Shown: piece after piece, positions 14,743 to 31,460 of the stretch | How the letters are laid out: each line of letters begins with the position of its first letter | Numbering within the stretch: position 1 is the stretch's first letter | Position numbers and translations under genes: made by a program | The notes under the pieces: model-generated | Seen by the model: the letters and a program-made list of their open reading frames with translations, nothing else | Told to the model about the DNA's origin: nothing | The model's database searches: none | Assembly: GCA_942492335.1 (NCBI GenBank) | Contig: CALOEN010000032.1 | Coordinates: 71,510-135,509 of the forward strand | Direction of reading: 5' to 3' | Origin: an uncultured beta proteobacterium | GTDB taxonomy: Bacteria; Pseudomonadota; Gammaproteobacteria; Burkholderiales; SG8-41 | DNA length: 64,000 bases

Positions 14743-16088
14743 TTATCTGCCCATCCGTTCGATGAAATGGGTGTCCAGGTTGCCGGCGATAAACTGGGGA
14801 TGGTCCGCCACCTCAAGGTAGAAGGGAATGGTGGTGGCAATGCCCGTCACCTTGAAGTTTTCAAGGGCCTGCTTCATCCGGGCCACGGCAGAAGGCCTGT
14901 CCTTGCCGAACACAATGAGCTTCCCGATGAGGGAATCATAAAAAGGCGGGATCAGGCAGCCGTCATGGATAAAGGTGTCCAGGCGGATGCCCGGCCCTTC
15001 AGGAAAAATAACGGTCTCTATTTCCCCCGGGGGAGGGCATGAAATTGTCCGCAGGATCTGCGGCATTGATCCGGCATTCAATGGCCCAGCCCCGGATGGC
15101 CACATCCTTCTGGGTCAGTGACAGGGGTTCCCCCTGGGCGATCCGGATCTGGGCCTGGACAATGTCAATGCCTGTGATCAGTTCGGTGATGGGATGCTCT
15201 ACCTGGACCCTGGCATTGGCCTCCATGAAGTAAAAATTTTTGTCCCGGTCCACCAGAAACTCCATGGTGCCGGCGTTGACATAGCCGATGGCCCGGGCAA
15301 TGCTGACGGCGGTCTCTCCCAGGACAGATCTCAATTGATCATCCACAAAGGGAGAGGGGGCCTCTTCGATGAGTTTCTGATACCGCATCTGGATGGAGCA
15401 CTCCCGCTCCCCCAGGTGGATGTAGTTGCCGTGGCTGTCCCCCAGGATCTGGATCTCGATATGACGCGGGGATTCAATGTACTTTTCCAGGTAGAGGCTG
15501 GGATTGCCAAAGGCGGATTTGGCCTCTCCTGCGGCCATGGAAAATGCCTGGGCGATCTCTTCCGGAGCCTTGACGATGCGCATCCCCCGCCCGCCCCCGC
15601 CGCCGGCAGCCTTGAAGATCACAGGGTAGCCCATTTCTTGAGCCAGTTCTGCCGCAGTCTCAGGGGAATCCACAATGCCGTCGGATCCAGGAATCACGGG
15701 CACCCCCAGTTCCAGGCAGGTCTGCCTGGCAGCGGCCTTGTCCCCGGCCCTGGCAATGGTCTCGGCGGACGGCCCGATAAAGACAAGCCCCTCGGCCTCG
15801 CACCGCCTGGCAAATTCCGCATTTTCGGACAGGAACCCGTATCCCGGGTGGATGGCCTCGGCCCCGGTCTCTTTGGCAGCTTCAATGATCCGGTCCTGGT
15901 TGAGGTAGGATTTCCGGCTCAAGGGGCGGACCGATGTGGACGGCCTGGTCTGCCTGCGTCACATGAAGGCTGTTGGCATCGGCATCTGAATAGACCGCCA
16001 CGCGTTTGATACCCAGTTGCCTGCAGGCCCGGATCACCCGAAGCGCAATCTCCCCTCTGTTGGCGATGAGAATGGTATGAATGGCCAT
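14743..16088 (-). CDS. accC: Biotin carboxylase, two frameshifts
   Basis: [17 protein letters not shown]; [14 protein letters not shown]; ERECSIQ; [12 protein letters not shown]; [10 protein letters not shown]. Frame breaks near 15920 and at the C5 run 15024-15028. Confidence 0.9.
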
Positions 16089-16475: not shown

Positions 16476-17168
16476 ATGAGTCCCGGGCCAAAGATCCAGA
16501 AACTTCCCAAACAGCCCCTGGCGGCGGTGGCCTACGAGACCATCATCCGCAAAATCATCTGCCTGGAATACCAGCCCAGCCAGCACCTGGAAGAGAGCCG
16601 GCTCATGGAAGATTTAGGTATCGGCCGCACCCCCATCCGGGAGGCCCTGGTCCGCCTCAACCATGAAAAAATGGTGGAATCCCACCCCAACAAAGGGGTG
16701 ATTGTCCGGCCCATCACCCTCCAGAACACCAAATCCATGTTTGAAAGCATGCTGCTCATTGAAACCGGCCTGGTGGATATTGCCCTGAGAAAAGACTGCA
16801 GCAGTTACCTTGAAAAAATGGCCCGGGCCAACAAAGAGGTGGCGGCCGCAGCAAAGGCCAACGATGTATTTCAACTGGTGGCCGCAAACCACAGGTTTCA
16901 CATGGCCTTTGCCAGGTCTTCCAGAAACGAGTTCCTCATCCGGGCGGCCAATGATATCAGAAGCGAGGCCAAACGCCTCTCATTTCTCTCCTACGACAAT
17001 GCCATTGACCCGGAACACCCCCTGGAACACCACTATGAGAGCGTTGTAGGGGAGCACGAAGAGATGATCCAGTGCCTGGCCGAAAAACAGGGAGACCGGC
17101 TGAAAGCGCTGATCCAGGACCATGTTGACACCTTCAGGGAAAGGATCATCATCTTCATGACCCACTAA
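16476..17168 (+). CDS. GntR family transcriptional regulator (FCD type)
   Basis: wHTH LEESRLMEDLGIGRTPIREAL, followed by an FCD domain (NHRFH, EHEEMI). Confidence 0.93.
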   Translation: MSPGPKIQKLPKQPLAAVAYETIIRKIICLEYQPSQHLEESRLMEDLGIGRTPIREALVRLNHEKMVESHPNKGVIVRPITLQNTKSMFESMLLIETGLVDIALRKDCSSYLEKMARANKEVAAAAKANDVFQLVAANHRFHMAFARSSRNEFLIRAANDIRSEAKRLSFLSYDNAIDPEHPLEHHYESVVGEHEEMIQCLAEKQGDRLKALIQDHVDTFRERIIIFMTH

Positions 17169-17215
17169 AGTACACGTGCAGGTAAATAAAAAACCAATAA
17201 GAAGGAGGAAGTACG

Positions 17216-17577
17216 ATGAAAAAACTGGTCTTACTCGCAGGTCTGTTGTGTTTTGCCTTAAGTCCCGTCTCCGAGTGGTTTTTGCCAAAACCAAGTGGGA
17301 CCTCCACCTCAACTATCCGGCCGGCAATTTCCACTCCCAGGGCGCCCAGCGCTTTGCCGATGAAGTGGAAAAGGCCACCAACGGTGAACTGAAAATCGTC
17401 CTCCATCCGGGCGCGGCCCTGGGGTTCAAAGGGCCTGAACTGCTGAGAGCCGTGGCCGACGGCGCCCTTTCCGTGGCAGAGATCCCCACCGGCATGGTAG
17501 AAGGGGATGCCCCGGTGCTGGCCCTCACAGCCCAGCCCTTTATCTCCACCAATGCCTTTGAGCAGCGTCTTCTTTAC
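17216..17577 (+). CDS. dctP: TRAP transporter substrate-binding protein, truncated
   Basis: Signal peptide (frameshifted near 17270), NYPAGNFHSQ, LHPGAALG, ELLRAVADG. The sequence ends abruptly at ~17577. Confidence 0.85.
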
Positions 17578-20500
17578 GTTGCCGTCAATGTCCAGTTCCA
17601 CCCAGCCCGGCCCATTGAGGTCCACGTCTGCCGAAAGAGTTGTGGAACGAATTTCCCGGGGCCCGTTCTGGGTAAATGCAAAGGGATCCCCACCGCCGCT
17701 GAATGCAACCGCTGTTGCACCAATGGTATGACTGTCGTTGACCCGGATCACCAATTGGTCGCCGTCCATCTGGATTTGATCGATGACAATCCCGGCATCG
17801 TAGGGCAGGGTTGCGTTGGCCGCTGCCGTGTGAATCATAGCGCAGCACTGGTTGGCCGACACCGCGTTGGAATCACTGATGGCACCGGTAAAGCTGCATC
17901 CGGTCGTATTTATGGACAGGGAAGGCGCACCGCCGCTGTTCTGCTGATGGAAATCACCGGCCCCGAGTCGTTTGCGGACATCCAGCTGGATGCCGGTGCC
18001 GACCGCTGTGGTCTGCACTTTGATCAGGTTCGTACCGGACTCCCAGGCACGCACGCCTTCCACAGCCAGGGCAATTTTTCGGGCCAGAACACTGGTTGCA
18101 TTGTCACCGGCCACCAGGTTGATTTCGGTGGTTCTTCCCCTGACGGTTACTTCCAGTGGTGTTGCGGTCAAATCAGAAGAGGCAAAGGCGGCATGACCGG
18201 TATCAACAACCACTTGTGCCGCCGTGCCCAGTACCGGCACTCCGTAGCTGCCGGTAAAGTCCAGGCGCCCGCTGCTTAAGGGGATGTCGCCGGTGGCGCG
18301 CAGGTGCGTGTTGCCAGTGTCGTACAAGCGGCGCAACACGTCGCTGTTGCGTGTTCTGGAGTCGGGAAAGGCAACCGCCGCGCCGTTTGCCAGCAGCTCC
18401 AGCCGACCGGCGGTATCGACTTGTGAATGAATGCCGCCCGGGGGTGTATTGGGCCACCCCGAAGTGAGATATGTGGTAAAATGTGTGACAAGCTCTGCCC
18501 GGGGGACCTGGTCTATATGGCTGAATTCACCGGTCCCCCGTCCCTCGCCCGTGTTGGTCAGTGAGGCCGGAGAGCCTCCGGCGACCACAATCGAGGCCCC
18601 GGAGCCACGCTGCACGCTTTCCACAACAATCACAGGTTCAGCCCGCATCTGTACCGGGATCGCGGATAATACCGTGTTAAAGGATTCCAGAGATCCCTGC
18701 ACCGTCGTATCGGTGGCGTTTGGGGTATGAATTGTTCCTCCGATATCAATAAGATGGGAATTGCCCAGGCCCCGGTCCAGGGCAATTTCACCGCGCAGGA
18801 GGGGACGGTGAACACCATAGAAAAAATATTCGGTGGCCCGTTCATTGACCCGCACCACCATCTGGTCGCCCACCAGTTGATAGGGGCCCGGATTTTCGGC
18901 AAACAGTTGTGCGGGCGGCGGTTCCACGATTTTCATTTCAGGTTCCGACGGCCAGCGACGCACGTTTAATAATTTGTGCTCATGTCCGCTTGCCGCTGCG
19001 GTGGTCAAACCGGTGGGAAAGCGCCTCCTTCTCAGAATATCGAACAGTTGATCGTGGGTTAAGTCGATGGTGTGGCTATGGGAAGCAGCGCCGCTCAGTG
19101 CCGTATTCGTGGTCAACGTTTGTGTTCCGGCGGGTGTGGTGCCCCATTCCCAGCCCAGTGTCCGCTGGTCTATCATCAGCCAGTGGCCATGGTCCGGCGA
19201 ACCGTTTTCGGAAGACCAGATATCGATCCTGCTCTGTAAATATTTGTATCCCGCCAGTGCATGGTCATGGCCGTTGACCGATGAAACAGTAAGGCTCGAC
19301 AGATCGCGCATGCCCATGATATCGGCGAGTTGCTCCTTCGTTAAGGTTATTTCATGGAAATGCCTCTCGTTTACCGTGGTGCTTACGGTGAGCGAGTCGG
19401 GCAGGGGGCCGTTTTCGATGAGGGTCCTGTCAACGAGAATCCAGTGTTCATGGGACGGCGTGCCCTCCTCGAAAAGAGAGATCACCAGTGGGTTCACCAG
19501 GGGCTGCTGCTCATCATTTTCCGAGGTGTAAAAGGCCATGGACAACGGTTTTCCTTCAATATGCCCTTTGCCCGGAATCCATGTCAGAAACGGAAAATTT
19601 CGAAAACCGTGCGTGGAGGAGTCCCTGAACACCACCGGCAATGTCATGTTCCGGCTGGCCGGATTGGCTGAGTTCGCCGGGTTTTCCACACGCCGCTGAT
19701 ACTCCTGGGCATGGAAATGCAAATGGTGCTGGGCACTGCGGCCCGTGCTGTCAATGTCGGCAATATGGACTCCTTGAGTGAACCGGTGCCCCACATCCAC
19801 CCATGCACGGTTGCGTGAAAGATGAACATAGACGGAATAGGTCAGCACGCGCTCGTCGTCGGTTCCGGGATCATGACCGGAGTGCCAGCTGGTATGCATC
19901 ACGTCTATGCTGTTCTTCTCATCACTGCCGTTTTTGTTGTCTTTGATGATATCAATGACAATGCCGTCACGGGCCGCCAGGGCATTTTTATTTTCTTTTT
20001 CATTAAAGTCATAACCATACTCATTGTCCACGTCGTCAGACGTTTTCACTTTGCTGGGGATGTGACTGAAAATGCCGTGCACGGCCTGGCCGCACAGCCA
20101 GTTCTCTCCGGAAGGGTAGGGCAGTTTGTAAGGGGAGGTGTCGGCATCCTTATCATCGAACAGGCCGTGTTTGTCGCGGCCGTCGTCAATGAAAAACCAC
20201 CAGAGAAAAAACGGGAGAATGCCTGCCACAAGAAGAGAACCGGAGAGCAGGAGACAAAACATGCCTGCTTCAATCAGGATTTCGACAATCGTGCTGTGCT
20301 CACCGGTGCCTGAATGGAAAAACAGCGGTATTCCGCCAATGCCGAAAAGAGTCAGGACTCCGACAACGATCGCGCCGGCTATTGCACCGCCCTTGCTGGA
20401 TGATTCCAGATCGGCCAGAATGAGAATCAGTGCTATCAGGGCCAGGATGGCACAAACAGTTGACAGGATGAGGGTCCACCAGTCGGGGGCTATGGGCAGG

Positions 20501-21957
20501 CTGCCGGGCCGCTGGCCTGCCAGTACCCACAGCACGACATATCCCGCAATAAAACCCAGGACCAGTCCCAGGACCAGCAGAACGATGGTGCGCGTGGTAA
20601 AGCCTTCTTCCAGGCTGAAATCGTCCCACGAGAGAAAAAAACTGAAAAAGGCCGCGATCCAGGACATGGGCCCCCAGACGGCCCAGAACATCCGTGACAT
20701 GGAGACTCGCTGAGGATTCTCCTCTTCGGCACGGTCTTTAAAATACCATACCGAACGGGTGAAATAATAAAATGAGCGGACAAGGGTCACGTTGGAGAAA
20801 TATTTCAACAGGCGCTGTGCGAACGACAAGGCCCAGTTGGAGTTACCGCCGTCATGGAAAGACTGAAACAGGCGAAGAAGAAGATTGAGGCTGAAATTGC
20901 CCTGATCGGAAAAGAACCAGTTCTTGAAGATATCGCCGCCACTGTCGTTACCGCGCTCTCGGTTGATGACCTCCGGCCATTTTGAGCGCACCAGGGTATG
21001 GCCACCGGCGTGCCAGAGAATGGTGAGGACACTCAGGGTACCGTCCAGCCAGCGGCCTTTGTAATTGTCCGTACGCACGGATTCCCACACGAGAAAGAAA
21101 GTGGCAAGCGTGTTGGTGGCCAGGTCCAGTCCCCATATGGCACCGGGATTTTCGTGGGAAACCGCCTTGACTTCATCCAGGTAATCCGGATCTTCTTCGG
21201 GCATGCCCCGGGGGCCGTCTCCGCCCGGGGTGCTCACGCTGGTGTTGAATTCAAAGCAGGCACTCAGCACCCCGCCATACTCGCTTTTAAAGGTCTGAAT
21301 AAAATCCATCAGGCCGGATACCGCCCGGTCGTCAATCCCTGCAACCACTTCATGCAGCACCCGGCGCAATTCCCATATGGCGTCAAACCCGGCGTCTGCC
21401 CAGGGCGCTTCATCCAGGCCTTCGCTGATATACTGCCTCAGGGTGACTGCCGAGCGAAAGGCCCGGTGTGCCGTTATATCGCGTCGGCCGCCTGCCAGGG
21501 GGTGTTCCAGCACCGAGGTCATGCCGTTTACCTGTTCCATCAGGAATTGGTTCAGGGCCTGGCCGTTCAAACGGGGAAGGGCGTCACACAAATTGTCAAT
21601 ATGTTGATGCAGGGTGTCACGCAAAACAGCACCGCCGGTATCATCCAGGCGTGAAAACAACTCCTTTCCAAGGTTCGTGATACCTTCGACGCTGTCCAGA
21701 CGATCCAGCAGATTTCGAATAAAGGAGATCGGTCCGCCGGAGCCGGCAAAACGCTCATACTGCTGCTCCAGTATATCATTGAACCGTTCCGACCGGCTTT
21801 GGACAAAATTATTCAGCCCGGATCCGAGACCCTCGGCACCTGTTCCCATGATGCCGAACACAAAATCCGTCAAGTCATCATAGGTCTGTTTGCGAGGTCC
21901 GGCATCCAGGGCCGTTTGTATACGATTGCGGTGTAACAGTGCATATCCCAGTGACAT
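17578..21957 (-). CDS. Giant multidomain membrane protein with an M23 peptidase domain; C-terminus cut at a junction
   Basis: Open frame of >1450 codons from MSLGYALL. Contains a hydrophobic helix cluster, M23 motifs (H..., YDF, AARDGIV, YVHL, STGRSAQHHLHF), His-x-His repeats and repeated beta-rich modules. Confidence 0.8.
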
Positions 21958-21960
21958 TTT

Positions 21961-22035
21961 TTTTCCTCCGGCGGCCCTTCGGGGACCCTCCGGGGGCTCT
22001 CCGAGGGCCAGCTTTAAAAAGCTGGACAAACAGAT
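21961..22035. repeat. Intergenic palindromic repeat, copy 1
   Basis: CCTCCGGCGGCCC...CCGGGGGCTCTCCGAGGG..CCAGCTTTAAAAAGCTGG.CAAACAGAT. Second copy at ~28617-28691. Confidence 0.85.
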
Positions 22036-22036
22036 G

Positions 22037-22081
22037 GGATGTAGAACTTATGTGAGCTGCGCTCACCAAAGTTCTACATCC
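22037..22081. repeat. Long stem-loop
   Basis: GGATGTAGAACTT / AAGTTCTACATCC outer stem with an inner GTGAGC/GCTCAC stem. Confidence 0.75.
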
Positions 22082-25000
22082 TAAGCGCTTACACGGGCAC
22101 TGACACCGGCAGTGCCGGTGGCCAGGGGAATGGGGTGCAGCATATCATCGAAAGCGACGTCCACGCGGGCCAGTTCGATATCGATCTCTTTTTTCAGTTC
22201 AAGGCTTGCGGCTTCAAGCAGTTTACGCAGGTTTGCAGGTAGATCCAGTACGGGCAGAAAGTCGGCCAGCAGGTCTTCGTATACCGGATCCACGGTGTCG
22301 GCTATGATCCTGCCGGGTGCCAGTGCGCCGATGGTTTCAACGGCGGCGTTGCAGGTTTCATTCAAGGTGTCGATGGTATTCTGGTCGATGATTGTGGAGA
22401 GGCTCAGCAAGTCGCCGACGGCATCACGTGCTGCTTCAAGAACTGCGCGCAAGGGCTCGGGATTTAAGGAATTTGCCGCGGTTTCAATGCGGCCGTGGAT
22501 CTGGTCCAGGGGATCTGTGACCGGTGCCAGGTCAATGTCGCGCAATATGTTTACAGCGTCTTCCACGGCGTTGACGGTGCCTCCCACCCCTTCATCCCCG
22601 ACGATGGTGTCCATTTTGGCATGCAGTGTGTCGGTAATGTCCGAGATTCCCTGCGCCAGCAACTGTATGTAGGGGGAGAAAGCCTGGAAAATCATGACGA
22701 TTGTTGTGAGCGGCGCGTGCAGGCTGTCACCCAGTGCCTGGTGTACGGTTTCCTTTAACGCTGCCACGGTGGCGGGCGGGTTCCTGAATTGTTCAAAGAT
22801 CCCTCCGCCGTTCAATTGCTGCACCTTGTAATAGTCCAGCAGCTTTTCCTGAAGGTTTCCCGCGGCATCGAGCAGTTTGGACGACATGCTGCCCCACGGT
22901 TGACGTGCGGCCTCCAGTATGTCCGCAACATGGTTCAGGCGTTCCATGGCTTCGACAAGACGGCGCCTGACGGGTATCATCCGGTGGGTGCGCAGGGTAT
23001 CCAGTGGAAAAGCACGGATGAGCATGATCACCTGTCGGGCGGCGGGAGAGCTGAGCAGGGGAATTCCCTGCTGTCCCGTCTGTTGCAAAGCCCGGGCGAC
23101 GTCACCTGCAATCGCATCGCGCTCGATACTCTGAACGGCTTCACCTGCTGCGGCAAAGGCGTTCTGCAGGCGGGCCGGATCCACTTCATCGAGTTTTGCA
23201 ACGGCCTGGTTCACCAGGTCATTTACCGCAGCGGTGGCATCGCCGGGCTCGCTGAACAGGTTCGCCCCGTCCCGCAGGAGGTCGCGGGTATCCGCGAGCA
23301 GCACGGTCCATGACTGAATGTATTCCAGGGCATCGTTGATACCGTCAAACAGGGTATCGATCTTCGTTGCTTCATACACTTTTTCGATGGCGCCTTCGAT
23401 GGCGTCATTTACCGGCTGAAGCAGTACCGACGGGCGCAGGGCCTCCACCTGGCTGAGGATGCGACCGTGAATATCCACCAGGGGATCAACCACCGCCCCC
23501 ACATCCAGCACATTTACGCGTTCCGCCAGCCCGTCAAGAGCGGCCTGTAAGTGATTCAGTAAATCAGACGGTTTAAACTCCTGCAGTGTTTGAATAAGCT
23601 GGGTGAAAGGCCCATCCAGCTCTTCGCCGATGATATTTGAGGGTTTAAACTGTGCAAGGCGGTGACGCAATTTATCGACACCTTCTTCCAATGCTTTCAG
23701 CACGACCCCCGGCCCTTCAACCAGGGCGGTTTGCACTGCGGTTGCAATGGGGGCGGAAACCTCTTCAGTGAACTCAATATCCGTCACAACCTTTACAGCC
23801 TGCCTGATGATTGGTTTGGCCGCATCGGGTATGGCGGTGGGATCGATGTCCTCCACTTTGGCTTCAATCTCTTCGATAAGGGAAATACTTTCGTCCGCGG
23901 CTGAGCCCAGGTCCAGGTTTTCCAGGGCCTGGATCACATTTTTGAGCAGATGGTCCACTTCTGCAAAGGTGCCGCGCACGGTATCGTTGTTGAGCAATGC
24001 TGCGACATCTTCCACCGCTTTTTTAACGGGTGCGGTCAATGATTCCGGATCGAAGCTGTTGGTGGCATTGGAAACCGTATTGACGGCAGTTTCAATGCCC
24101 TGCCTTACCGGATCAATGGCAGGCAGCACCTCGGTGTTTACAAAATTTTCGATTTCTCCGGGTAAACTCTCCAGGGCACTCTGTATTTCCGTAAAACCTG
24201 CCGCGGTCAATGCGGTATCCAGTGCGGTTTCCACCGGCGCGATCAGGGACGTCATTTCCGTGCGCACCGTTTCCCTGACACCATTGACCTCGTCGACTGC
24301 GCTCTGGACGGCGTCTCGTACCGTTTGCAGGGCACCGGTCACTTCGGAGAAATTAAACTCATCGATTGCGGTCGTCACATCGCTGAAGATATCCGTTGCG
24401 GTTTCCGGAAGCTCGGCCAGCAGCTCCTGCACTTTTTCAGCGACCGGCGTGATGTCAAAGGCCGGTTGCAGAGCCCTTGCAACGGTCAACAAAGAGCGGG
24501 TGAGCTCTTCATCCAGGCTTTGCGCCCGAGCCAGCGGCGAGAGTTCCGGGTGAAGGGCCATGGCAAGTTTTTCAAGCTTTTCCGCTGTGGCTTCGATGAG
24601 GCTCATTTCACTGAAGGCCGGATGCGCCGAGGCGGTAAGCATTTTAGGCCGCAGCGTGGAGAACACGTCCGTTAAGGTTGCGTGTGCAGTGGTCAGGGTG
24701 AGCATTCCGCTGTTGATTTGACCGGCCGCATCCAATACCGGTGCGGCAACACGGGTGCGCGGTGTACGTATCAACTCCGCCGCCATCTCGATTGTGCGTA
24801 CCAGGTTGGCGTTCAACTGCTCCGGTGTCAGGGTTTGCCAGGTGGCAATTGTCTGCAGAGATTCCATGGTTTCATCGATCACCGGCAGGTTTGGGAACCT
24901 CAGCAGTGGGGTGGCAAATCCCGCAGCGGCCCCTTGCAGGAATTCCAGAAGTCGTGGGGCATCAATGCGCGGACCAAGGCCCTGCACCAGGCTGCGCGCC

Positions 25001-25461
25001 TGGGCAATGGCATCACGCAGTTCGTCCACGTCGGGTAGATCCGGTATATCAAATCCCTTGTCTTCGGGCATACCGCTGGGGCCGCCGAATACCCGTCCTG
25101 TGATCAGGCGAATGACCTCCTGCACCAGTTTTATCAGGGCCGTAAACTGCACAGTGCTGCCGCCGCTCAGGGTACCGCTTAAGTTTGTTATCGGTGCAAG
25201 TATCTGCTCAAGGGGCCCGCTGAAATCCGTGGGCACGCTCAATCCGCCAAGTTCCGTCGACAGATTGGCAATTCCCTCCAGGCCGGGGGGCAGGGGAACC
25301 GCCTGGATAATATTCTGGAGACTCGCTAATTCCGCAGGTCCATCCATCAATTCCCGTACCGTTGAAATAATGTTGCCGAGTTGGGCGCCCTGTCCACTGA
25401 CTTGTGTATCCAGGTCGGCGGAACTTATGAGTGAATCCAATGAATCGAGCAGTCCTTCCAT
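22081..25461 (-). CDS. ~1126-aa alpha-helical hypothetical protein (tape-measure/apolipoprotein-like)
   Basis: Long open frame rich in A/L/D/E with amphipathic repeats (LxPSxLL, LxPVxxAI). ATG at 25461 follows AGGAG and overlaps the upstream TAA (TAATG). Confidence 0.75.
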   Translation of the reverse strand: MEGLLDSLDSLISSADLDTQVSGQGAQLGNIISTVRELMDGPAELASLQNIIQAVPLPPGLEGIANLSTELGGLSVPTDFSGPLEQILAPITNLSGTLSGGSTVQFTALIKLVQEVIRLITGRVFGGPSGMPEDKGFDIPDLPDVDELRDAIAQARSLVQGLGPRIDAPRLLEFLQGAAAGFATPLLRFPNLPVIDETMESLQTIATWQTLTPEQLNANLVRTIEMAAELIRTPRTRVAAPVLDAAGQINSGMLTLTTAHATLTDVFSTLRPKMLTASAHPAFSEMSLIEATAEKLEKLAMALHPELSPLARAQSLDEELTRSLLTVARALQPAFDITPVAEKVQELLAELPETATDIFSDVTTAIDEFNFSEVTGALQTVRDAVQSAVDEVNGVRETVRTEMTSLIAPVETALDTALTAAGFTEIQSALESLPGEIENFVNTEVLPAIDPVRQGIETAVNTVSNATNSFDPESLTAPVKKAVEDVAALLNNDTVRGTFAEVDHLLKNVIQALENLDLGSAADESISLIEEIEAKVEDIDPTAIPDAAKPIIRQAVKVVTDIEFTEEVSAPIATAVQTALVEGPGVVLKALEEGVDKLRHRLAQFKPSNIIGEELDGPFTQLIQTLQEFKPSDLLNHLQAALDGLAERVNVLDVGAVVDPLVDIHGRILSQVEALRPSVLLQPVNDAIEGAIEKVYEATKIDTLFDGINDALEYIQSWTVLLADTRDLLRDGANLFSEPGDATAAVNDLVNQAVAKLDEVDPARLQNAFAAAGEAVQSIERDAIAGDVARALQQTGQQGIPLLSSPAARQVIMLIRAFPLDTLRTHRMIPVRRRLVEAMERLNHVADILEAARQPWGSMSSKLLDAAGNLQEKLLDYYKVQQLNGGGIFEQFRNPPATVAALKETVHQALGDSLHAPLTTIVMIFQAFSPYIQLLAQGISDITDTLHAKMDTIVGDEGVGGTVNAVEDAVNILRDIDLAPVTDPLDQIHGRIETAANSLNPEPLRAVLEAARDAVGDLLSLSTIIDQNTIDTLNETCNAAVETIGALAPGRIIADTVDPVYEDLLADFLPVLDLPANLRKLLEAASLELKKEIDIELARVDVAFDDMLHPIPLATGTAGVSARVSA

Positions 25462-27407
25462 TACGTCGCTCCTGCTTGCCAAGGGTTATAGACCAGTACA
25501 AAATTGCTCAGGGACAAATCCACATCGCGGCGGCAGCTGAATCCCAGGCTTAACAGGCCGCCAAGGTCCGGGATGCGGTCGAGAAAGGGCTTGTGTGCGC
25601 TGTTTTGCGCAACCCAGAAGCGCCGAAACTGCGGCGGCAGTTGCCGTGCCCTGCCTGCCACCCCCACAAGATCGTTATTGAGAATGCCGTCGGTCCAGTT
25701 CAGCGTGACGGGTTCCAGGGGACCCGGGCTGCCGTTTTGATCGACTTCCACGACTGCCAGCTGCAGCACGGGTTTTGCCGTCAGGAGTGTCCAGCCTGCA
25801 CCGTCGTCACTGGAACGTTGTGTATCACCCGGGCTCTCCATGTCGGCGTGCCACCAGAATACCCCCCGGGTCACCCGGGCGACAACCCACACGGATTCGG
25901 GGTGGGGCGGCAGCATCTTGTCAGCGGCAAAGGCGGCACGTTGCCAGCCCGGTTGCGATGCCGGTGACAACGGTATGGAAACCGGCTCACCGATGGCGGG
26001 ACCAATACGGACGCCGTCGCCACTGTGCAAGGAAACAAGCAGTTCTCCCTCCTCGCTCGCCCTGCCGAACAACGCAACCCGTGCAATGGGCAGATTGCGT
26101 TCCACTCCGGTCAACGTCATGCGCCGGGCCAGCCTTGTCGTGTTGTCGACGCGGAATCCCCGGCGGGGACATTCAAAGGCTTCGTCGGCTGCCATCACCA
26201 GGCGCGCCGGGCCGTAGGTCCCGTCAATGGTAAAGCTGAAGCCCGAAGGCCTCAGGTTTTCAGGGACGGGCAGGTGAATGTGCCCGGGGGCGCCCAGTAA
26301 TGATTTTTCTTCAGCATCGCCGGAGAGGGGATAGCGCAGATAACGTGCGGTGGCCGCCGCAAGGTTGACGCGAAGGTTTCCGGGAGAGTCGGAGGTGAAA
26401 TTCAACTGCAGCCCCAGGTCGTCACCGCTGCCGGACGGATAGGATGATTTCAATAAACTCCGGGCGGCGGGGGCAAAGTCCACATGAAGAGGCGTGTTGC
26501 CGGGATCTGTATCAAAGCGTGACACAACTGGCTCGTCGGTAACCAAAGGTGCTGTTGCCGTGATACTGACCCCGGCGGGCCGAATATCATACCTGGCCGT
26601 CACCGATGCTGCCGACCATGAAATGCCGCCCACCTCAGTGGGTAATCCGCCATGGGCGCGGTCACTGTTATCAGAACTCACCCCCAGCAGCAATTTGAAG
26701 TCCGTCACCGGTAACGGGACAGACAAATTCAAGATCGCTTTTATTTTCCCTCCGGCGGCAAAAACGGATAACGACGCTCCCCCCAGTGCAGGCCCGTACA
26801 TATCACCGCCCTGTCCGGGCATGTCAAAATGGGGGGCGGCCGCCATGGGTGGCCCGTATGCGCCATTGGCGGCGGGGCGTATAAGAAAGTGCACATATTC
26901 GGCTCCACTGGTTGAACCGTTGACTTCGGCATTCACCCGGCCGCTGCCGCCGTCAAAACGGTATACGACACGCCCCACGCTTCCGTTTGCTCCATTACCT
27001 TCAACAACATGGGTTTTGGATGCTGACGCCGGCAGCATCAAATCTTCGATTTCTATGCGTTCAAGACTTACAGGTGCTCCGGAGACAACGGGATTATAGT
27101 CAAAGGGCAGCCCGTCCGGTGATACGTTTTGTGCCGATACTGTTTTATCATCACTCAATGACGTGCTGGACAGATCGAAACCGACGGATTCCACTTCCAC
27201 TTCATCGAGTCCCGGCAGGCGGGGGATGGGTACGGGCAGTGACTGGACTTGGCCGGCGGAGGTGAATTCCAGGATTTCTCCTTCCGGCCGGGTTGGCTCC
27301 AGTTGCACGGCATAAGGTGCCAAAGCCGCGGCAGACCGCACTCCGAGGCTTTCAAACGTCAGCTCTGCCAGAGAAAAATCAAATGCAGGTCCCAGTATCC
27401 ATGCCAT
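25461..27407 (-). CDS. 648-aa beta-rich hypothetical protein
   Basis: Long ORF with coherent codon usage, coupled to its neighbours by TGATG and TAATG overlaps. No family recognised. Confidence 0.75.
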   Translation of the reverse strand: MAWILGPAFDFSLAELTFESLGVRSAAALAPYAVQLEPTRPEGEILEFTSAGQVQSLPVPIPRLPGLDEVEVESVGFDLSSTSLSDDKTVSAQNVSPDGLPFDYNPVVSGAPVSLERIEIEDLMLPASASKTHVVEGNGANGSVGRVVYRFDGGSGRVNAEVNGSTSGAEYVHFLIRPAANGAYGPPMAAAPHFDMPGQGGDMYGPALGGASLSVFAAGGKIKAILNLSVPLPVTDFKLLLGVSSDNSDRAHGGLPTEVGGISWSAASVTARYDIRPAGVSITATAPLVTDEPVVSRFDTDPGNTPLHVDFAPAARSLLKSSYPSGSGDDLGLQLNFTSDSPGNLRVNLAAATARYLRYPLSGDAEEKSLLGAPGHIHLPVPENLRPSGFSFTIDGTYGPARLVMAADEAFECPRRGFRVDNTTRLARRMTLTGVERNLPIARVALFGRASEEGELLVSLHSGDGVRIGPAIGEPVSIPLSPASQPGWQRAAFAADKMLPPHPESVWVVARVTRGVFWWHADMESPGDTQRSSDDGAGWTLLTAKPVLQLAVVEVDQNGSPGPLEPVTLNWTDGILNNDLVGVAGRARQLPPQFRRFWVAQNSAHKPFLDRIPDLGGLLSLGFSCRRDVDLSLSNFVLVYNPWQAGAT

Positions 27408-28312
27408 CAGCTTTCCACCTTAATCGTCAGTTCACCCAGGGAGACAGTTCGATGATTGGTATGTGCCAGGCTGAGCACTATCCTTACCCGGGTATCGTTG
27501 TTCAGGCTTGCCGGCGGACGATAGACCAGGTTAAACACATTTTCAGCACCTGGCTCGTAAGCCACAAAGCCCACGGGCGCATGGGTTGTATCACCAATAA
27601 GTTCACCGGGCGGGGATGCCCCTTTCATGCGCGCTACAAGACGCACCGGGGCCCCATTCAACGGGCGCAGATCGACATGCAGCGGTACCGTCACATCCCC
27701 TGCGCCTGCGCCGGCTTTGATGTTTTCCGGTATCTGAACCGGCAGGATGGCGATGCGTGTCGGCAGGGTTTCGATCATATCACCTGCGGCAGCGGCTCCC
27801 ACAGGCCAGAAACGCCCGGTATACCGGTAGGTTGCCCGTAATGTGTGAAAACTTTCACGCTGTTCCGGCAAAGGCCCCAGCCTGGTCAACCGAAAGCCCT
27901 CCAGGTCAAAACCAGGATCAGGACCTGTCTGAAATGCCTGTCCCGTTCGCAGGTTTTCATCATGCAGCACCATCAGTGCGCGGTCCAGCACCTGCATCAG
28001 CAGCGGGCGGTTTATACGTGCATCACCATCCTGAGGCGTGGCTGCAACGGCAAAATCCACAGCCACGGTGCCGGTAAGAAAAAGGGTGGGGCGCAATTGA
28101 TAATTACGGCGTTGTCCCAGGCGTTCACGGGCATCGTCGCCAAGATGGCTGTTCGATGCCCCCGTTAACACTCTGACGGTAACAACGACCCGTTGCGCAT
28201 TTTCCGCGACCAGGTCCGGGATATCATCACGTGGCCGCACAACGACGCTGTCCGAGCCGGCAAGGCCGTCTGAGAGCATGTCTGTGAGTCGATTTTCAAA
28301 TGGGTCGAGCAT
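27407..28312 (-). CDS. 301-aa hypothetical protein; N-terminus resembles Pvc16/tail-terminator-type proteins
   Basis: GAGG RBS; helix-beta-beta-helix pattern (MLDPFENRLTDMLSDGL...LMQVLDRALMVLHD). The resemblance is by eye only. Confidence 0.65.
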   Translation of the reverse strand: MLDPFENRLTDMLSDGLAGSDSVVVRPRDDIPDLVAENAQRVVVTVRVLTGASNSHLGDDARERLGQRRNYQLRPTLFLTGTVAVDFAVAATPQDGDARINRPLLMQVLDRALMVLHDENLRTGQAFQTGPDPGFDLEGFRLTRLGPLPEQRESFHTLRATYRYTGRFWPVGAAAAGDMIETLPTRIAILPVQIPENIKAGAGAGDVTVPLHVDLRPLNGAPVRLVARMKGASPPGELIGDTTHAPVGFVAYEPGAENVFNLVYRPPASLNNDTRVRIVLSLAHTNHRTVSLGELTIKVES

Positions 28313-28616
28313 AATGAATCCTCAGGACTGTTGACGAAATGAACTGGTCATAATAAATTCGGTCTCATTTGCAGACCGACATGAATAGAACCTCTGTTAA
28401 TGAACTGAAAAACCGATATATATTAGGATTATGGTGCGTGGAACGCACCCTGCGTTGTCCTTCGAGAAGCTATTTTAAAATTCCAGCATTTACAGAGATC
28501 TCAAAACTTTGGTTAGCGTTTATGGGGCGTTTCCCTGTGCTTAATTTCAATTGGCCGCGCAGTTGTGAATTTGTGTACTAAGTACACCGCGGCATAAATG
28601 CGCCGCTGGTTTGATT

Positions 28617-28691
28617 TGCCTCCGGCGGCCCTCCGGGGGCTCTCCGAGGGGCCTCCCGGCGGGCCAGCTTTAAAAAGCTGGGCAAACAGAT
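28617..28691. repeat. Intergenic palindromic repeat, copy 2
   Basis: Same core as 21961-22035. Confidence 0.85.
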
Positions 28692-28730
28692 CGGCTCATG
28701 CCGACCTACCCGACTGATGTATTCCCGTTA

Positions 28731-29675
28731 TTATGGAATTCTCCTTCTTTCGATCCTCGTTCCTGCGATTCTGTTTCTTTCGATCTTCGTCAACCGTGTA
28801 TTCAAGGTTCCCAACTGGTCCGGTAAAGCCTGCAAACGCGGCATGGTTTTTTCGATACTGCCGACAGACCGGTTGATCCGCCTTACAACCGTGTTGGTTT
28901 CGGCTATGGCGGATTCCACAACGCTTACCCGCTTATCAATGGTATCGGTGGTGATAGTTCGAGTGGAAAAGTCATCCAGCTGTTTATCCACAGTGGTTCG
29001 CCATCCGATAATCTCCTGCTGGGATTTCGACAGGCGATCCACCTGCACCCTCACTCCTGCCAGATTGTCAAGTTCCGCTTCGTTGGCGCTTATCCGTATC
29101 ATCGTATTCTGAATGCCTGTGCTGTTGGCCTTGATCTGCTCCTGCATCTTTGCAATGCCCGGCAGCGACTGTTCAATGGTTCCGACCCGGTTGGTGATAC
29201 TGCTCACCCGACCGGACAGGATATCCATATGGCCCATTCCGCTCTCCACCTTGTCAACACGGGTAACAAGGCCATCCAGATCGGTTTTCATACTGTCCAT
29301 GTCGCCGGAGCGGGTTTCCAGGGAGTTTAAGCGCGAACGGATTTTGGGCAGCTCTGCAATGGATGTCTGGTTGCTTTTAACTCCTGTTTCAACGCCCGAT
29401 ATGCGCGTGCCGTGGGAGGCGAGCCGGTCGGGAACTCCTTTTAAAGCCGCAAGGGAAGTCATTGCCGATGACATGCCATTTTCCACCTTGTCAAGCCGGG
29501 TGCCGTGTTTCGTGATGTTGCCGTCCAGTTCCGTAAATTGTGATGTCAGGGTATTGCCCGTGTTGGTAATGGTTTCGAATTGCGGTACGAATTTTTCCTC
29601 CACCTGCGTCGCAACCTTTTTCACCAGGCCCGCTTCATCGAGAATGTCACCCTCGCGCAGGCGTTTCAGGATCAC
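28731..29675 (-). CDS. Long coiled-coil protein, probably 5'-truncated
   Basis: Repeated heptads of the type RLDKVE, RISGVE, RLNSLE, RVDKVE, RVGTIE, RVSVVE, RLTKIE. Confidence 0.75.
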   Translation of the reverse strand: MILKRLREGDILDEAGLVKKVATQVEEKFVPQFETITNTGNTLTSQFTELDGNITKHGTRLDKVENGMSSAMTSLAALKGVPDRLASHGTRISGVETGVKSNQTSIAELPKIRSRLNSLETRSGDMDSMKTDLDGLVTRVDKVESGMGHMDILSGRVSSITNRVGTIEQSLPGIAKMQEQIKANSTGIQNTMIRISANEAELDNLAGVRVQVDRLSKSQQEIIGWRTTVDKQLDDFSTRTITTDTIDKRVSVVESAIAETNTVVRRINRSVGSIEKTMPRLQALPDQLGTLNTRLTKIERNRIAGTRIERRRIP

Positions 29676-30346
29676 TGCTGGTCAGCATCGACGGCATGCT
29701 CCGCCATGACGAGCAGCGCGGCAAGCAGGGCTCGTTCGAGAAGACGTTCGGCAATTTAGAGGCCCTGCGCAAACGCTATCCGGAGCTGTCCATCACGCTC
29801 AAGTACACCATCACCCCGGTGAACTACGACGAGCTGCTCAAGTCCTATGAATTCTTGAGCGGCCATGGCTATCGCTTCACCGCCAAGATGTTGGAATACA
29901 ACCCGCATTACACCAACAAGCTCACCGGCGCGATCGAGGACCGGGCCACGGGATTCACCACCGGGCAAGTGTCCGAAATCAAGCGCCAGCTGGAGGCCAT
30001 CCTGGCTCTGGCCCCACGCGGTCGCCGTCACGCCCGGCGGGTGGCCGAGATGCAGGAGGTGCTGGATTCCCTCGATCCGCAATGGCGTCGCCCGGGGCGC
30101 TGCTCTACACCCAAGAACGTGGCCTTTCTGGACTGCGATTTGAATCTTTTTACCTGTAAGGAGTACGGCCCCGTCGTCAACCTGCAAGAGGAGCGCCTCG
30201 ACGACCTGAGCAAACGCTCGCAGTTCCAGGACATCGTCGCGCACGAACGCCAAAACAGCGGCCAGTGCACCCGTTGCACGTCGCAGATGAAACGCAGCTC
30301 GGAGGCCCAACGATGGCTTGGCTATCTCGCGTCCTGGGCGCGCTGA
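29675..30346 (+). CDS. Radical SAM/SPASM protein, C-terminal part only
   Basis: LVSIDG...HDEQRG..GSF, then SPASM/twitch cysteines (C...DCDLNLFTC...CTRC). The CxxxCxxC motif is not in the window. Confidence 0.8.
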   Translation: MLVSIDGMLRHDEQRGKQGSFEKTFGNLEALRKRYPELSITLKYTITPVNYDELLKSYEFLSGHGYRFTAKMLEYNPHYTNKLTGAIEDRATGFTTGQVSEIKRQLEAILALAPRGRRHARRVAEMQEVLDSLDPQWRRPGRCSTPKNVAFLDCDLNLFTCKEYGPVVNLQEERLDDLSKRSQFQDIVAHERQNSGQCTRCTSQMKRSSEAQRWLGYLASWAR

Positions 30347-31455: not shown

Positions 31456-31460
31456 CCCCA

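What the first reader, a model, noticed from the sequence alone, without database searches (positions are those of the whole stretch)
17578..21957. Giant protein joining a membrane helix bundle, an M23 peptidoglycan endopeptidase and repeated beta-rich modules
Seen, N to C: a helical domain, roughly 5-8 hydrophobic segments (~20170-21130), an M23 domain (~19700-20130, with YDF, YVHL and HLHF motifs), His repeats, then repeated modules such as GPYQL.G.QMVVRV, LEVTVRG...A..LARKIA and VELDIDG. Established: M23 domains are Zn-dependent peptidoglycan endopeptidases. Inference: either a membrane anchor that opens the wall for a large machine, or an injected cargo with pore-forming and lytic parts. 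I do not recognise this architecture.
Basis: partly seen in the sequence, partly recalled or inferred. Interest (0 to 1): 0.75.

Follow-up and report, generated by a model that had tools for sequence, protein, structure and literature searches.

The report
Giant tail lysin of contractile injector
This is the first 1,460 residues of a roughly 2,700-residue protein of a phage-tail-like contractile injection machine: it sits directly behind the tape-measure gene and joins membrane helices to a wall-cutting M23 enzyme, so its core is a variant of a known phage device, while the full giant form is undescribed and is cut off here by an assembly junction.

Summary
On the minus strand, 21957→17578 encodes 1,460 residues: a helical N-domain, four strong and about three weak hydrophobic helices, an M23 domain, two HxH-rich modules and alpha/beta modules. 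The gene breaks at 17577/17578, where an unrelated DctP fragment begins. Relatives continue for about 1,200-1,300 more residues.

The context explains what it is. Full-length relatives (2,550-2,900 aa, 34 representatives at 50% identity) always follow a 1,129-1,136-aa helical protein. That pair lies at the end of a stand-alone contractile-tail cluster (sheath, tube, hub, spike, PAAR, gp25, Baseplate J) with no capsid genes. Shorter relatives of about 800 aa share the N-terminal motif, hydrophobic segments and M23 domain. With the same helical protein, they occupy the tape-measure slot between tube and hub.

So window 22081-25482 is most likely the tape measure. The giant is its partner, a tail lysin and membrane-insertion protein like the C-terminus of phage T5 pb2, with a lineage-specific extension of about 1,900 aa. 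Ejection into a target envelope is inferred. A role as a producer-membrane anchor is not excluded.

The canonical HxxxD histidine is Glu646, but His632 is invariant.

Verdict: a new variant of a known kind, of moderate interest.

The parts
17578..21957 (-). Genuine coding part of the giant gene, aa 1-1460 of an expected ~2,700. The start is the ATG at 21957. The gene is cut at 17578 by a sequence junction.
   Evidence: tblastn with P0152 aligns its aa 1-1453 to window 21957-17578 and stops there.
21148..21957 (-). N-terminal acidic helical domain (aa 1-270). It carries the superfamily N-terminal motif MSLGYALLHxNR.
   Evidence: AF2 predicts it all-helical, pLDDT 55-78. The motif is shared with the ~800-aa short forms. 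No PDB fold match.
20188..21147 (-). Hydrophobic helical region (aa 271-590). It holds four strong TM-like helices (aa 455-589, nt 20191-20595) and about three weaker, amphipathic ones.
   Evidence: This is the only TM-bearing protein in the whole cluster.
19468..20160 (-). M23 metallopeptidase domain with a conserved C-terminal extension (aa 600-830). The Pfam core is aa 646-757 (nt 19687-20022). Conserved residues are H632, D650, H712, H745 and H747. Glu646 sits at the canonical HxxxD His position.
18958..19467 (-). Two tandem HxH-rich modules (aa 831-1000), each with three nearly invariant HxH motifs. They are presumed to bind metal.
   Evidence: AF2 pLDDT is only 51-72. No family match was found.
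17578..18957 (-). Alpha/beta modules (aa 1001-1460) resembling FliD D2-D3, flagellin outer domains and phage baseplate decoration domains. This is the first part of the ~1,900-aa extension beyond M23 (aa 831 to the end of the full-length protein).
   Evidence: AF2 pLDDT is 85-95 for aa ~1240-1460. Foldseek hits to FliD 5xlj/5xlk have probability 0.97-0.99 but E ~0.01. The BFVD hit to Baseplate J-like proteins has E 4e-4. Pfam Flagellin_IN is sub-threshold in relatives.
17155..17577 (-). Spurious tail of the mechanical ORF. It is an open antisense frame of an unrelated DctP gene fragment and is not part of the protein.
22081..25482 (-). 1,133-aa all-helical repeat protein directly upstream of the giant gene. 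[quoted passage not shown]
   Evidence: PHROG tape-measure hits at E 5e-7 and 1.4e-6. It is homologous along its full length to proteins of 1,122-1,139 aa that lie between tube and hub in L032, L033 and L028. Length is constant at 1,129-1,136 aa in all six giant-type clusters.
25461..27407 (-). Conserved 648-aa cluster protein of unknown function, specific to this lineage.
   Evidence: Syntenic in L004-L007 and L010. No Pfam, PHROG or PDB match.
27407..28312 (-). Conserved 301-aa cluster protein of unknown function, specific to this lineage.
   Evidence: No Pfam, PHROG or PDB match.
28731..29675 (-). C-terminal 314 aa of the ~540-560-aa coiled-coil protein of the cluster, presumed fibre-like. 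It is cut at 29675 by the second junction.
   Evidence: cc537 aa 248-532 aligns to window 29663-28821.
21958..22080 (-). Spacer between the tape-measure gene and the giant gene. It holds a 21-nt hairpin (22037-22081) and one copy of an ~80-nt repeat (21957-22038) that ends in the giant gene's ribosome-binding site and ATG. A second copy lies at 28604-28694.
   Evidence: No Rfam match.

Best explanation
Shown:
- The finding is the 5' 54% of a gene for a ~2,700-aa protein.
- That protein is a conserved component of a stand-alone contractile tail, that is, a phage-tail-like contractile injection system or tailocin with no capsid genes.
- Its upstream neighbour (window 22081-25482) is the system's tape-measure-type protein.
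- The giant's first ~830 aa (helical domain, hydrophobic helices, M23) are homologous to ~800-aa proteins. Together with the same tape-measure-type protein, those occupy the slot between tube and hub in related tails.

Inferred mechanism: the protein is built into the central channel or hub of the tail next to the C-terminal end of the tape measure. Sheath contraction expels it into the target envelope. There the M23 domain (plus a LysM domain in some members) cuts peptidoglycan cross-links, and the hydrophobic helices insert into a membrane to make or anchor a channel. This is the mechanism described for the hydrophobic stretch and metallopeptidase domain at the C-terminus of phage T5 tape measure pb2.

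Unassigned: the ~1,900-aa extension (HxH modules plus a string of flagellin/FliD-like alpha/beta modules) is specific to this lineage and has no assigned role.
For: Family and synteny. There are 34 representatives with E<=1e-30, and full-length members are 2,550-2,900 aa. The same gene order is seen in four phyla-level MAG loci and one metagenome contig.

Link to the tail.
- L010 carries sheath, hub, spike (Phage_base_V), PAAR, sheath initiator and Baseplate_J, then the 1,129-aa gene, then the giant's N-terminus.
- L026 and L006 overlap on one Bryobacteraceae contig.
- The sheath is the first gene of the cluster, and unrelated cellular genes lie upstream.

Tape-measure identity of the neighbour. 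It has PHROG tape-measure hits. Its length stays within 1,122-1,139 aa at 23-26% identity to the short-form clusters. In L032 and L033 it sits between tube and hub.

Short forms. P0048, P0052, P0056 and P0090 share the MSLGxxLLxPQ start, 1-2 hydrophobic segments and M23, and they end just after M23.

M23. Pfam scores above its cut-off. The profile hits LytM and lysostaphin at 3e-6 to 1e-4. H632, D650, H712, H745 and H747 are invariant in 34/34 giants. A LysM domain is present in P0024.

Precedents. T5 pb2 has a hydrophobic stretch compatible with two TM helices, followed by a muralytic metallopeptidase that is expelled first (PMC10038345). The diffocin tape measure lies in the tube lumen and has five predicted TM helices (PMC11329794).
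Against: - No direct evidence places the protein in a particle.
- Four very hydrophobic helices (Kyte-Doolittle means up to 3.1) would normally be inserted co-translationally into the producer's own membrane. It is the only TM protein of the cluster.
- About 1,900 aa of apparently folded modules are hard to fit into a ~4-nm tube lumen together with a tape measure.
- In this lineage the tape-measure and giant gene pair is not in the tube-hub slot. It lies at the far end of the cluster, after the fibre-like genes.
- AF2 confidence for aa 1-830 is low (mean pLDDT 54).
- Topology could not be resolved from loop charges.
Confidence: 0.55

Rival explanations
1. Producer-membrane anchor. The giant inserts into the producer's inner membrane with its N-terminal helical domain in the cytoplasm, where it binds the baseplate or tape measure. 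M23, LysM and the long extension lie in the periplasm, where they open and hold the producer's own wall. The tail would then fire outward, T6SS-like, from a fixed site.
For: It is the only protein of the ~19-gene cluster with TM helices, and no cluster protein has a signal peptide. The four TM helices are far more hydrophobic than those of the short forms. The cluster has no holin or endolysin genes for release. LysM (P0024) and M23 flank the four strong helices, so both would face the same compartment. CIS anchoring by TM-bearing accessory proteins has precedent: Anabaena Cis13 (PMC8894136) and, from its title and abstract only, Streptomyces CisA (PMC12237407).
Against: Its homologues sit in the tape-measure slot of tails, including one contig labelled a viral OTU. 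It remains paired with the tape-measure-type gene. No TssJLM-like or other envelope-complex genes are present. An N-in topology needs one of the weak helices to span the membrane, and this is unresolved.
Confidence: 0.25
2. Lumen-loaded toxin cargo. Like the 2,367-aa Afp18 encoded at the end of the Serratia Afp cluster (own knowledge), the giant would be a payload whose extension carries the toxic activity. The TM and M23 parts would serve only for entry.
For: It lies at the distal end of the cluster, followed by a conserved HExxH protein. It is very large. It has a conserved extreme N-terminus that could serve as a loading signal.
Against: It is conserved one-to-one with the core genes and keeps the same length across phyla, whereas cargo is usually variable. 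No toxin domain is found by Pfam, NCBIfam or PDB profile search. The extension resembles structural decoration domains. The cluster has no Afp15-type ATPase.
Confidence: 0.1
3. Release device. The TM helices plus M23 act as a fused holin and endolysin that lyses the producer to free the tails.
For: No other lysis genes are seen in or next to the cluster. The protein has membrane helices next to a wall hydrolase.
Against: A ~2,700-aa protein with a conserved helical N-domain and a ~1,900-aa extension is far beyond what lysis requires. Short forms occur inside tail modules, not in lysis cassettes.
Confidence: 0.05
4. Artefact. The whole ORF is a chimera produced by misassembly.
For: The 12.1-kb block 17578-29675 is bounded by four broken genes: DctP, the giant, the coiled-coil gene and a radical SAM gene. 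Its GC content is ~0.56, against 0.60-0.66 for most of the sequence beyond it. The last 141 codons of the mechanical ORF are antisense DctP.
Against: Residues 1-1460 are collinear with independent full-length relatives from many assemblies: 62% identity to P0152 over aa 1-1453 and 56% to P0003. Only the 3' end is an artefact.
Confidence: 0.03

Closest known systems
C-terminal part of phage T5 tape measure protein pb2 (PMC10038345; Boulanger et al. 2008, as cited there)
   Same: Both show the order helical region, hydrophobic stretch compatible with TM helices, then Zn-metallopeptidase with muralytic activity. Both lie at the hub end of the tail channel. In T5 this part is expelled to digest peptidoglycan and form a membrane channel.
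   Different: Here the ruler (1,133 aa) and the TM and M23 part are separate genes. The tail is contractile and has no capsid genes. There are four strong helices instead of two. About 1,900 aa follow the peptidase. No sequence homology to pb2 was tested or shown.
Short 'MSLGxxLLxPQ ... M23' tail proteins of ~720-1,000 aa (P0048, P0052, P0056, P0090 and others; unnamed and uncharacterised)
   Same: They are true homologues of aa 1-830 (BLASTP 4e-25 to P0048). They share the N-terminal motif and the invariant H632, D650, H712, H745 and H747, and they have the same upstream 1,122-1,139-aa partner.
   Different: They end just after M23, have only 1-2 moderately hydrophobic segments, and lie between tube and hub rather than at the end of the cluster.
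Diffocin (Clostridioides difficile R-type bacteriocin) tape measure CD1366 and hub-hydrolase (PMC11329794)
   Same: It is a contractile bacteriocin whose lumen protein carries five predicted TM helices and whose tail carries a peptidoglycan hydrolase for penetration.
   Different: In diffocin the TM helices are within the tape measure itself and the hydrolase is fused to the hub. No homology was shown.
CIS membrane anchors: Anabaena tCIS Cis13 (PMC8894136) and Streptomyces CisA (PMC12237407, known here from title and abstract only)
   Same: These are TM-bearing accessory proteins encoded with or near a CIS that tie it to a membrane.
   Different: Cis13, the one read here, has a single TM helix. 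No peptidase was found in the tCIS paper (the term 'peptidase' does not occur in it). Neither is known to pair with a tape measure. No homology was detected.
LytM/lysostaphin-type M23 endopeptidases (PDB 2b44, 4qp5, 2gu1)
   Same: Pfam M23 scores above its cut-off. The YxHL and HxH motifs and the Asp align.
   Different: The HxxxD His is not conserved (Glu646 here). An invariant His lies 18 residues upstream of the Asp, a spacing reminiscent of LasA-type M23A enzymes (own knowledge, not tested).
FliD D2-D3 and flagellin outer domains (Pfam Flagellin_IN motif)
   Same: The fold of the alpha/beta modules resembles them (Foldseek probability 0.97-0.99). Motifs like 'LEVTVRG..LARKIA..GVRA' look like the IN motif.
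   Different: All scores fall below family thresholds (Foldseek E ~0.01; Pfam 16.9-18.8 bits against 22.7). There is no flagellar context.

Membership tests
Peptidase family M23 (PF01551) | Sequence match above Pfam's curated gathering score | tested here: met
   31.3 bits against a cut-off of 28.7, E 2.3e-7, aa 646-757. The family profile hits LytM at 3e-6 and lysostaphin at 2.6e-5.
Peptidase family M23 (PF01551) | Zn ligands (His and Asp of HxxxD, second His of HxH) plus two catalytic His | tested here: inconclusive
   D650, H712, H745 and H747 are present and invariant. The column aligned to the LytM HxxxD His is Glu646 here. Across the giants that column reads H27, E2, R2, L2, V1, and it is hydrophobic in the short forms. 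His632 is invariant in 34/34 giants, 13/13 short forms and 82/86 other hits. The site is probably complete with His632 as first ligand, but no structure confirms this, because the AF2 M23 region has pLDDT <50.
Peptidase family M23 (PF01551) | Peptidoglycan endopeptidase activity | not testable with these tools
   This needs a sacculus or zymogram assay of aa ~600-830.
Component of a contractile tail / contractile injection system | Encoded in one cluster with sheath, tube, hub, spike, gp25-like and Baseplate J genes | tested here: met
   Met for orthologues in L010 and in L026 plus L006 on one contig. It is not visible in the window itself, which holds only a 12.1-kb fragment.
Component of a contractile tail / contractile injection system | Physical presence in the assembled particle | not testable with these tools
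   This needs proteomics or cryo-EM of purified tails.
Tape-measure-linked tail lysin (T5 pb2 C-terminus type) | Order helical, then hydrophobic or TM segments, then muralytic metallopeptidase | tested here: met
   The T5 layout is taken from PMC10038345.
Tape-measure-linked tail lysin (T5 pb2 C-terminus type) | Part of, or adjacent to, the tape measure protein | tested here: met
   It lies directly downstream of the 1,133-aa protein. That protein has PHROG tape-measure hits, constant length and the tube-hub position in L032 and L033.
Tape-measure-linked tail lysin (T5 pb2 C-terminus type) | Located in the tube lumen and expelled on triggering | not testable with these tools
   Inference only.
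Afp/PVC-type extracellular CIS | Afp15-type AAA+ ATPase and DUF4255 (Afp16) terminator in the cluster | tested here: not met
   No such Pfam hit in any gene from the sheath to the HExxH protein. The gene order is Mu/PBSX-like.
T6SS membrane complex or wall-remodelling accessory (TssJLM, TagX-like) | Homology to TssJ/L/M or to a known T6SS-linked hydrolase | tested here: not met
   No Pfam or NCBIfam hit other than M23.
Flagellin_IN / FliD D2-D3-like domain | Match above the family threshold | tested here: inconclusive
   Pfam gives 16.9-18.8 bits against a cut-off of 22.7, in relatives only. The PDB profile hits FliD at E 0.14-0.36. Foldseek gives probability 0.97-0.99 but E ~0.01.

The most novel reading that the evidence does not exclude
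In this lineage a tape-measure-partner lysin may have been converted into a single-protein trans-envelope anchor. It would be inserted in the producer's inner membrane by four TM helices. M23, and LysM in some members, would open the producer's wall, and a ~1,900-aa string of flagellin-like modules would reach toward the cell surface. That would make a cell-anchored, outward-firing contractile tail in diderm bacteria: a T6SS-like mode that evolved independently of TssJLM.
Probability: 0.2. Interest if true: 0.8.

Novelty: new variant of a known kind. Interest (0 to 1): 0.55.

Why it matters
It assigns a context and a testable role to a family of ~2,700-aa proteins that databases label only 'M23 family metallopeptidase' or 'hypothetical'. 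The family marks a distinct contractile-tail lineage with about eight lineage-specific accessory genes. That lineage occurs in Myxococcota, Acidobacteriota, Alpha- and Gammaproteobacteria, Desulfobacterota and a sponge symbiont.

It also reveals a much wider, unnamed family of ~800-aa tail proteins paired with a tape measure of about 1,130 aa (1,122-1,139). These split between two genes the functions that phage T5 pb2 combines in one.

Whether the giant is ejected or anchors the tail decides if these machines are tailocin-like or T6SS-like. Cultured members exist in which this can be tested: Haliangium sp., Plesiocystis pacifica SIR-1, Neoroseomonas soli, and probably Roseomonas sp. OT10. The variant M23 site (His-x17-Asp) is a small enzymological point of interest.

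Tried and rejected
- Prophage reading: rejected. The sheath is the first gene and cellular genes lie upstream in two genomes. Three IMG/VR scans, with the giant, the 180-aa protein and the sheath, found no relative.
- Afp/PVC-type eCIS and T6SS membrane complex: no defining genes found.
- The giant as the tape measure itself: rejected, because its upstream neighbour fills that role.
- Positive-inside analysis of topology: uninformative. All short loops are poor in Lys and Arg.
- AF2 of aa 1-830: mean pLDDT 54, with the M23 part below 50. Its Foldseek search returned only noise, best E 0.3.
- PDB sequence-profile searches of the whole family and of the 301-aa and 648-aa neighbours: nothing beyond M23.
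- PHROGs on the short forms: no tape-measure hit.
- NCBIfam: nothing for the giant or for the 1,133-aa, 648-aa and 301-aa neighbours; the coiled-coil fragment gave only sub-threshold or non-specific coiled-coil matches.
- Look-up of the window's own 648-aa protein: not on record.
- Literature: no paper links a CIS to a TM and M23 giant.
- Rfam: no hit for the intergenic repeat.


Full report
1. The observation.

The mechanical ORF is 17155..22029 on the minus strand. Its translation starts the conserved sequence MSLGYALLH at the ATG at 21957.

Pfam finds one domain, Peptidase_M23, at aa 646-757 (E 2.3e-7; 31.3 bits against a cut-off of 28.7). NCBIfam finds nothing. PHROGs finds only peptidase and endolysin families over the same stretch.

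Hydropathy shows four very hydrophobic segments at aa 455-589, plus weaker ones from aa ~279. It also shows six HxH motifs between aa 836 and 994.

The last 141 codons of the ORF (17155-17577) are not part of the gene. The plus strand there carries a GntR/FCD regulator (16476-17168) and the first ~120 codons of a DctP solute-binding protein (Pfam model positions 7-83 of 286). The giant's frame simply stays open on the antisense strand.

Relatives read WVELDIDGNV|VIVPLDGEPAR.. where the window reads ..GNV|KKTLLKG. tblastn with P0152 stops exactly at 17578.

A second junction lies at 29675/29676. There a coiled-coil gene loses its N-terminal half and abuts a radical-SAM gene lacking its first ~130 residues.

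The 12.1-kb block between the junctions has GC ~0.56, against 0.60-0.66 for most of the sequence beyond it. The database holds the same 1,600-aa product on a 139,742-nt contig, so the join is in the deposited sequence.

2. The family.

A word-indexed search found three relatives (73, 56 and 48% identity). An exhaustive HMMER scan of 1.84 billion representatives found 34 proteins with E<=1e-30, and full-length members are 2,550-2,900 aa.

Named carriers are Haliangium sp. (WP_428264590.1), Neoroseomonas soli, Plesiocystis pacifica SIR-1, a Polyangiales MAG and 'Chloroflexi bacterium TSY'. Species-representative genomes add a Gammaproteobacteria MAG (73% identity), Bryobacteraceae, Syntrophobacteraceae and a MAG labelled Heliomicrobium.

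3. Context.

In all of these loci the gene order is the same. Sizes in aa are approximately: 180, 320-360, 490-560 (coiled coil), 301-307, 640-690, 1,129-1,136 (helical), the giant, then 267-275 carrying an HExxH motif. The window holds only the stretch from the coiled-coil C-terminus to giant aa 1460.

A metagenome scan seeded with the 180-aa protein gave L010. There a contractile tail module lies directly upstream: sheath, a tube-sized protein, hub, Phage_base_V spike, PAAR, sheath initiator and Baseplate_J. The giant's N-terminus follows the 1,129-aa gene on the same contig. L013 confirms the layout.

Sheath homologues then gave L026, which is the same Bryobacteraceae contig as L006, and L027 (Roseomonas sp. 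OT10, a complete genome). In both, the sheath is the first gene and unrelated cellular genes lie upstream.

No relative was found in IMG/VR.

This is therefore a stand-alone contractile tail, not a prophage. It lacks the Afp15 ATPase and the DUF4255 terminator of Afp/PVC-type systems. The giant is the only protein in it with TM helices, and none has a signal peptide.

4. The key relatives.

Below the giants in the HMMER list are many proteins of 720-1,000 aa. They start with MSLGxxLLxPQ, have one or two moderately hydrophobic segments and an M23 domain, and end right after it.

Their contexts (L028, L033, L032) show a helical protein of ~1,122-1,139 aa followed by the short M23 protein. In L028 and L033 a hub-like gene (Phage_GPD in L033), spike, PAAR and a gp25-type gene follow directly, then Baseplate J. 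In L032 a hub-like fragment, spike, PAAR, gp25 and Baseplate J follow after one small gene on the opposite strand. L032 also shows the sheath and tube upstream.

That helical protein is homologous along its full length to window 22081-25482 (E 6e-50 and 5e-47).

A BLASTP map shows that both cluster types share sheath, tube, hub, spike, PAAR (56-64% identity), gp25, Baseplate J, the helical protein and the giant's N-part.

Four lines of evidence identify the helical protein as the tape measure: its slot between tube and hub, its near-constant length at ~24% identity, its all-helical nature, and PHROG tape-measure hits. The giant is its gene partner. In this lineage the pair has moved to the end of the cluster, and the M23 protein has gained stronger TM helices and about 1,900 extra residues.

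5. Domains.

M23. The family profile aligns to LytM and lysostaphin. The column matching the LytM HxxxD His is Glu646 in the window and in its closest relatives, and it varies across the whole superfamily. His632, Asp650, His712, His745 and His747 are invariant. I read His632 as the first Zn ligand (His-x17-Asp). This is an inference from conservation.

LysM. One subgroup (P0024) carries a LysM domain just upstream of the TM block. LysM and M23 therefore flank four strong helices and would face the same side.

AF2 models. For aa 831-1460 the model has mean pLDDT 69.5, rising to 85-95 for aa ~1240-1460. The highest-probability PDB matches are FliD D2-D3 (probability 0.97-0.99) and flagellin outer domains, though the lowest E-value went to a low-probability immunoglobulin-like hit. 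The best viral matches are long Baseplate J-like proteins (E 4e-4). No PDB match reaches E<=1e-3. Sub-threshold Flagellin_IN and FliD sequence hits agree with this. For aa 1-830 the model is poor (pLDDT 54) and has no fold match.

HxH modules. These have no recognisable relatives.

6. Mechanism.

Known systems give a direct model. In T5, the tape measure pb2 ends in a hydrophobic stretch compatible with two TM helices, followed by a muralytic metallopeptidase. That end sits at the hub plug. It is expelled to digest peptidoglycan, and the hydrophobic part then forms a membrane channel (PMC10038345). The diffocin tape measure lies in the tube lumen and has five predicted TM helices (PMC11329794). 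Hydrophobic helices are therefore compatible with a lumen location.

I therefore favour an ejected wall-cutting and membrane-inserting partner of the tape measure (confidence 0.55). Cluster membership, the pairing with the tape measure and the homology to the short forms are shown. Ejection is inferred.

The main rival (0.25) is a producer-membrane anchor that opens the producer's own wall. It is supported by three points: the giant is the only TM protein of the cluster, its helices are unusually hydrophobic, and there are no lysis genes. Anabaena Cis13 and Streptomyces CisA are precedents.

Cargo-toxin and lysis-device readings are less likely.

7. Novelty.

The core layout is known in kind. 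The split tape-measure and lysin pair, the ~2,700-aa form, its accessory gene set and the variant M23 site were not found described. I rate it a new variant of a known kind, interest 0.55.

Noticed in passing
window 17577/17578 and 29675/29676; also 14999-15922 and 17217-17577: The window looks like a mosaic. Besides the two junctions around the 12.1-kb block, there is a biotin carboxylase fragment on the minus strand at 14999-15922, which starts at Biotin_carb_N model position 56 and has no C-terminal domain. The DctP fragment has an apparent frameshift near 17260. The deposited contig (139,742 nt) may be chimeric or concatenated.
   Followed up: partly
window 21957-22038 and 28604-28694 (minus-strand sense); hairpin at 22037-22081: Two copies, about 85% alike, of an ~80-nt GC-rich element containing the palindrome CCAGCTTTTTAAAGCTGG. 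One runs into the giant gene's ribosome-binding site and ATG. The other lies just 3' of the coiled-coil gene. A 21-nt perfect-stem-like hairpin follows the tape-measure stop codon. There is no Rfam match, and the element is absent from the 13-nt spacer of the closest relative, L004.
   Followed up: partly
L004 18315-19121; L005 17911-18732; L006 17845-18648; L007 17998-18825: A conserved 267-275-aa protein with the motif HELGHL(L/V)(F/H)(D/E/N)WPD(L/F), an HExxH metalloprotease signature, always follows the giant gene. It has no signal peptide and no significant Pfam family.
   Followed up: partly
L026 12784-13956; L010 1889-3403; L027 12767-14081: In giant-type clusters, the slot between tube and hub holds a protein of variable length (157+282 to 504 aa). 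It has a conserved N-domain, a Pro/Ala-rich disordered middle and a conserved C-end LADVLERAAxEAGVDL. Its role is unknown.
   Followed up: no
L032 (ena ERZ14695916 DNA_vOTU_7166) 1-2000: The short-form cluster L032 is labelled a viral OTU. Next to its tail module it carries DNA ligase and anti-Pycsar Apyc1-like genes, so the short M23 and tape-measure pair probably also occurs in bona fide phages.
   Followed up: no
window 29677-33143: Beyond the right junction lie a truncated PapB-like radical SAM/SPASM maturase, a sugar aminotransferase and a cyclic-peptide-export ABC transporter. These are unrelated to the finding.
   Followed up: no
window 25461-28312: The 301-aa and 648-aa proteins are strictly conserved in this tail lineage. 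They have no detectable relatives in Pfam, PHROGs or NCBIfam, none in the PDB, and none by BLASTP in the short-form clusters.
   Followed up: partly
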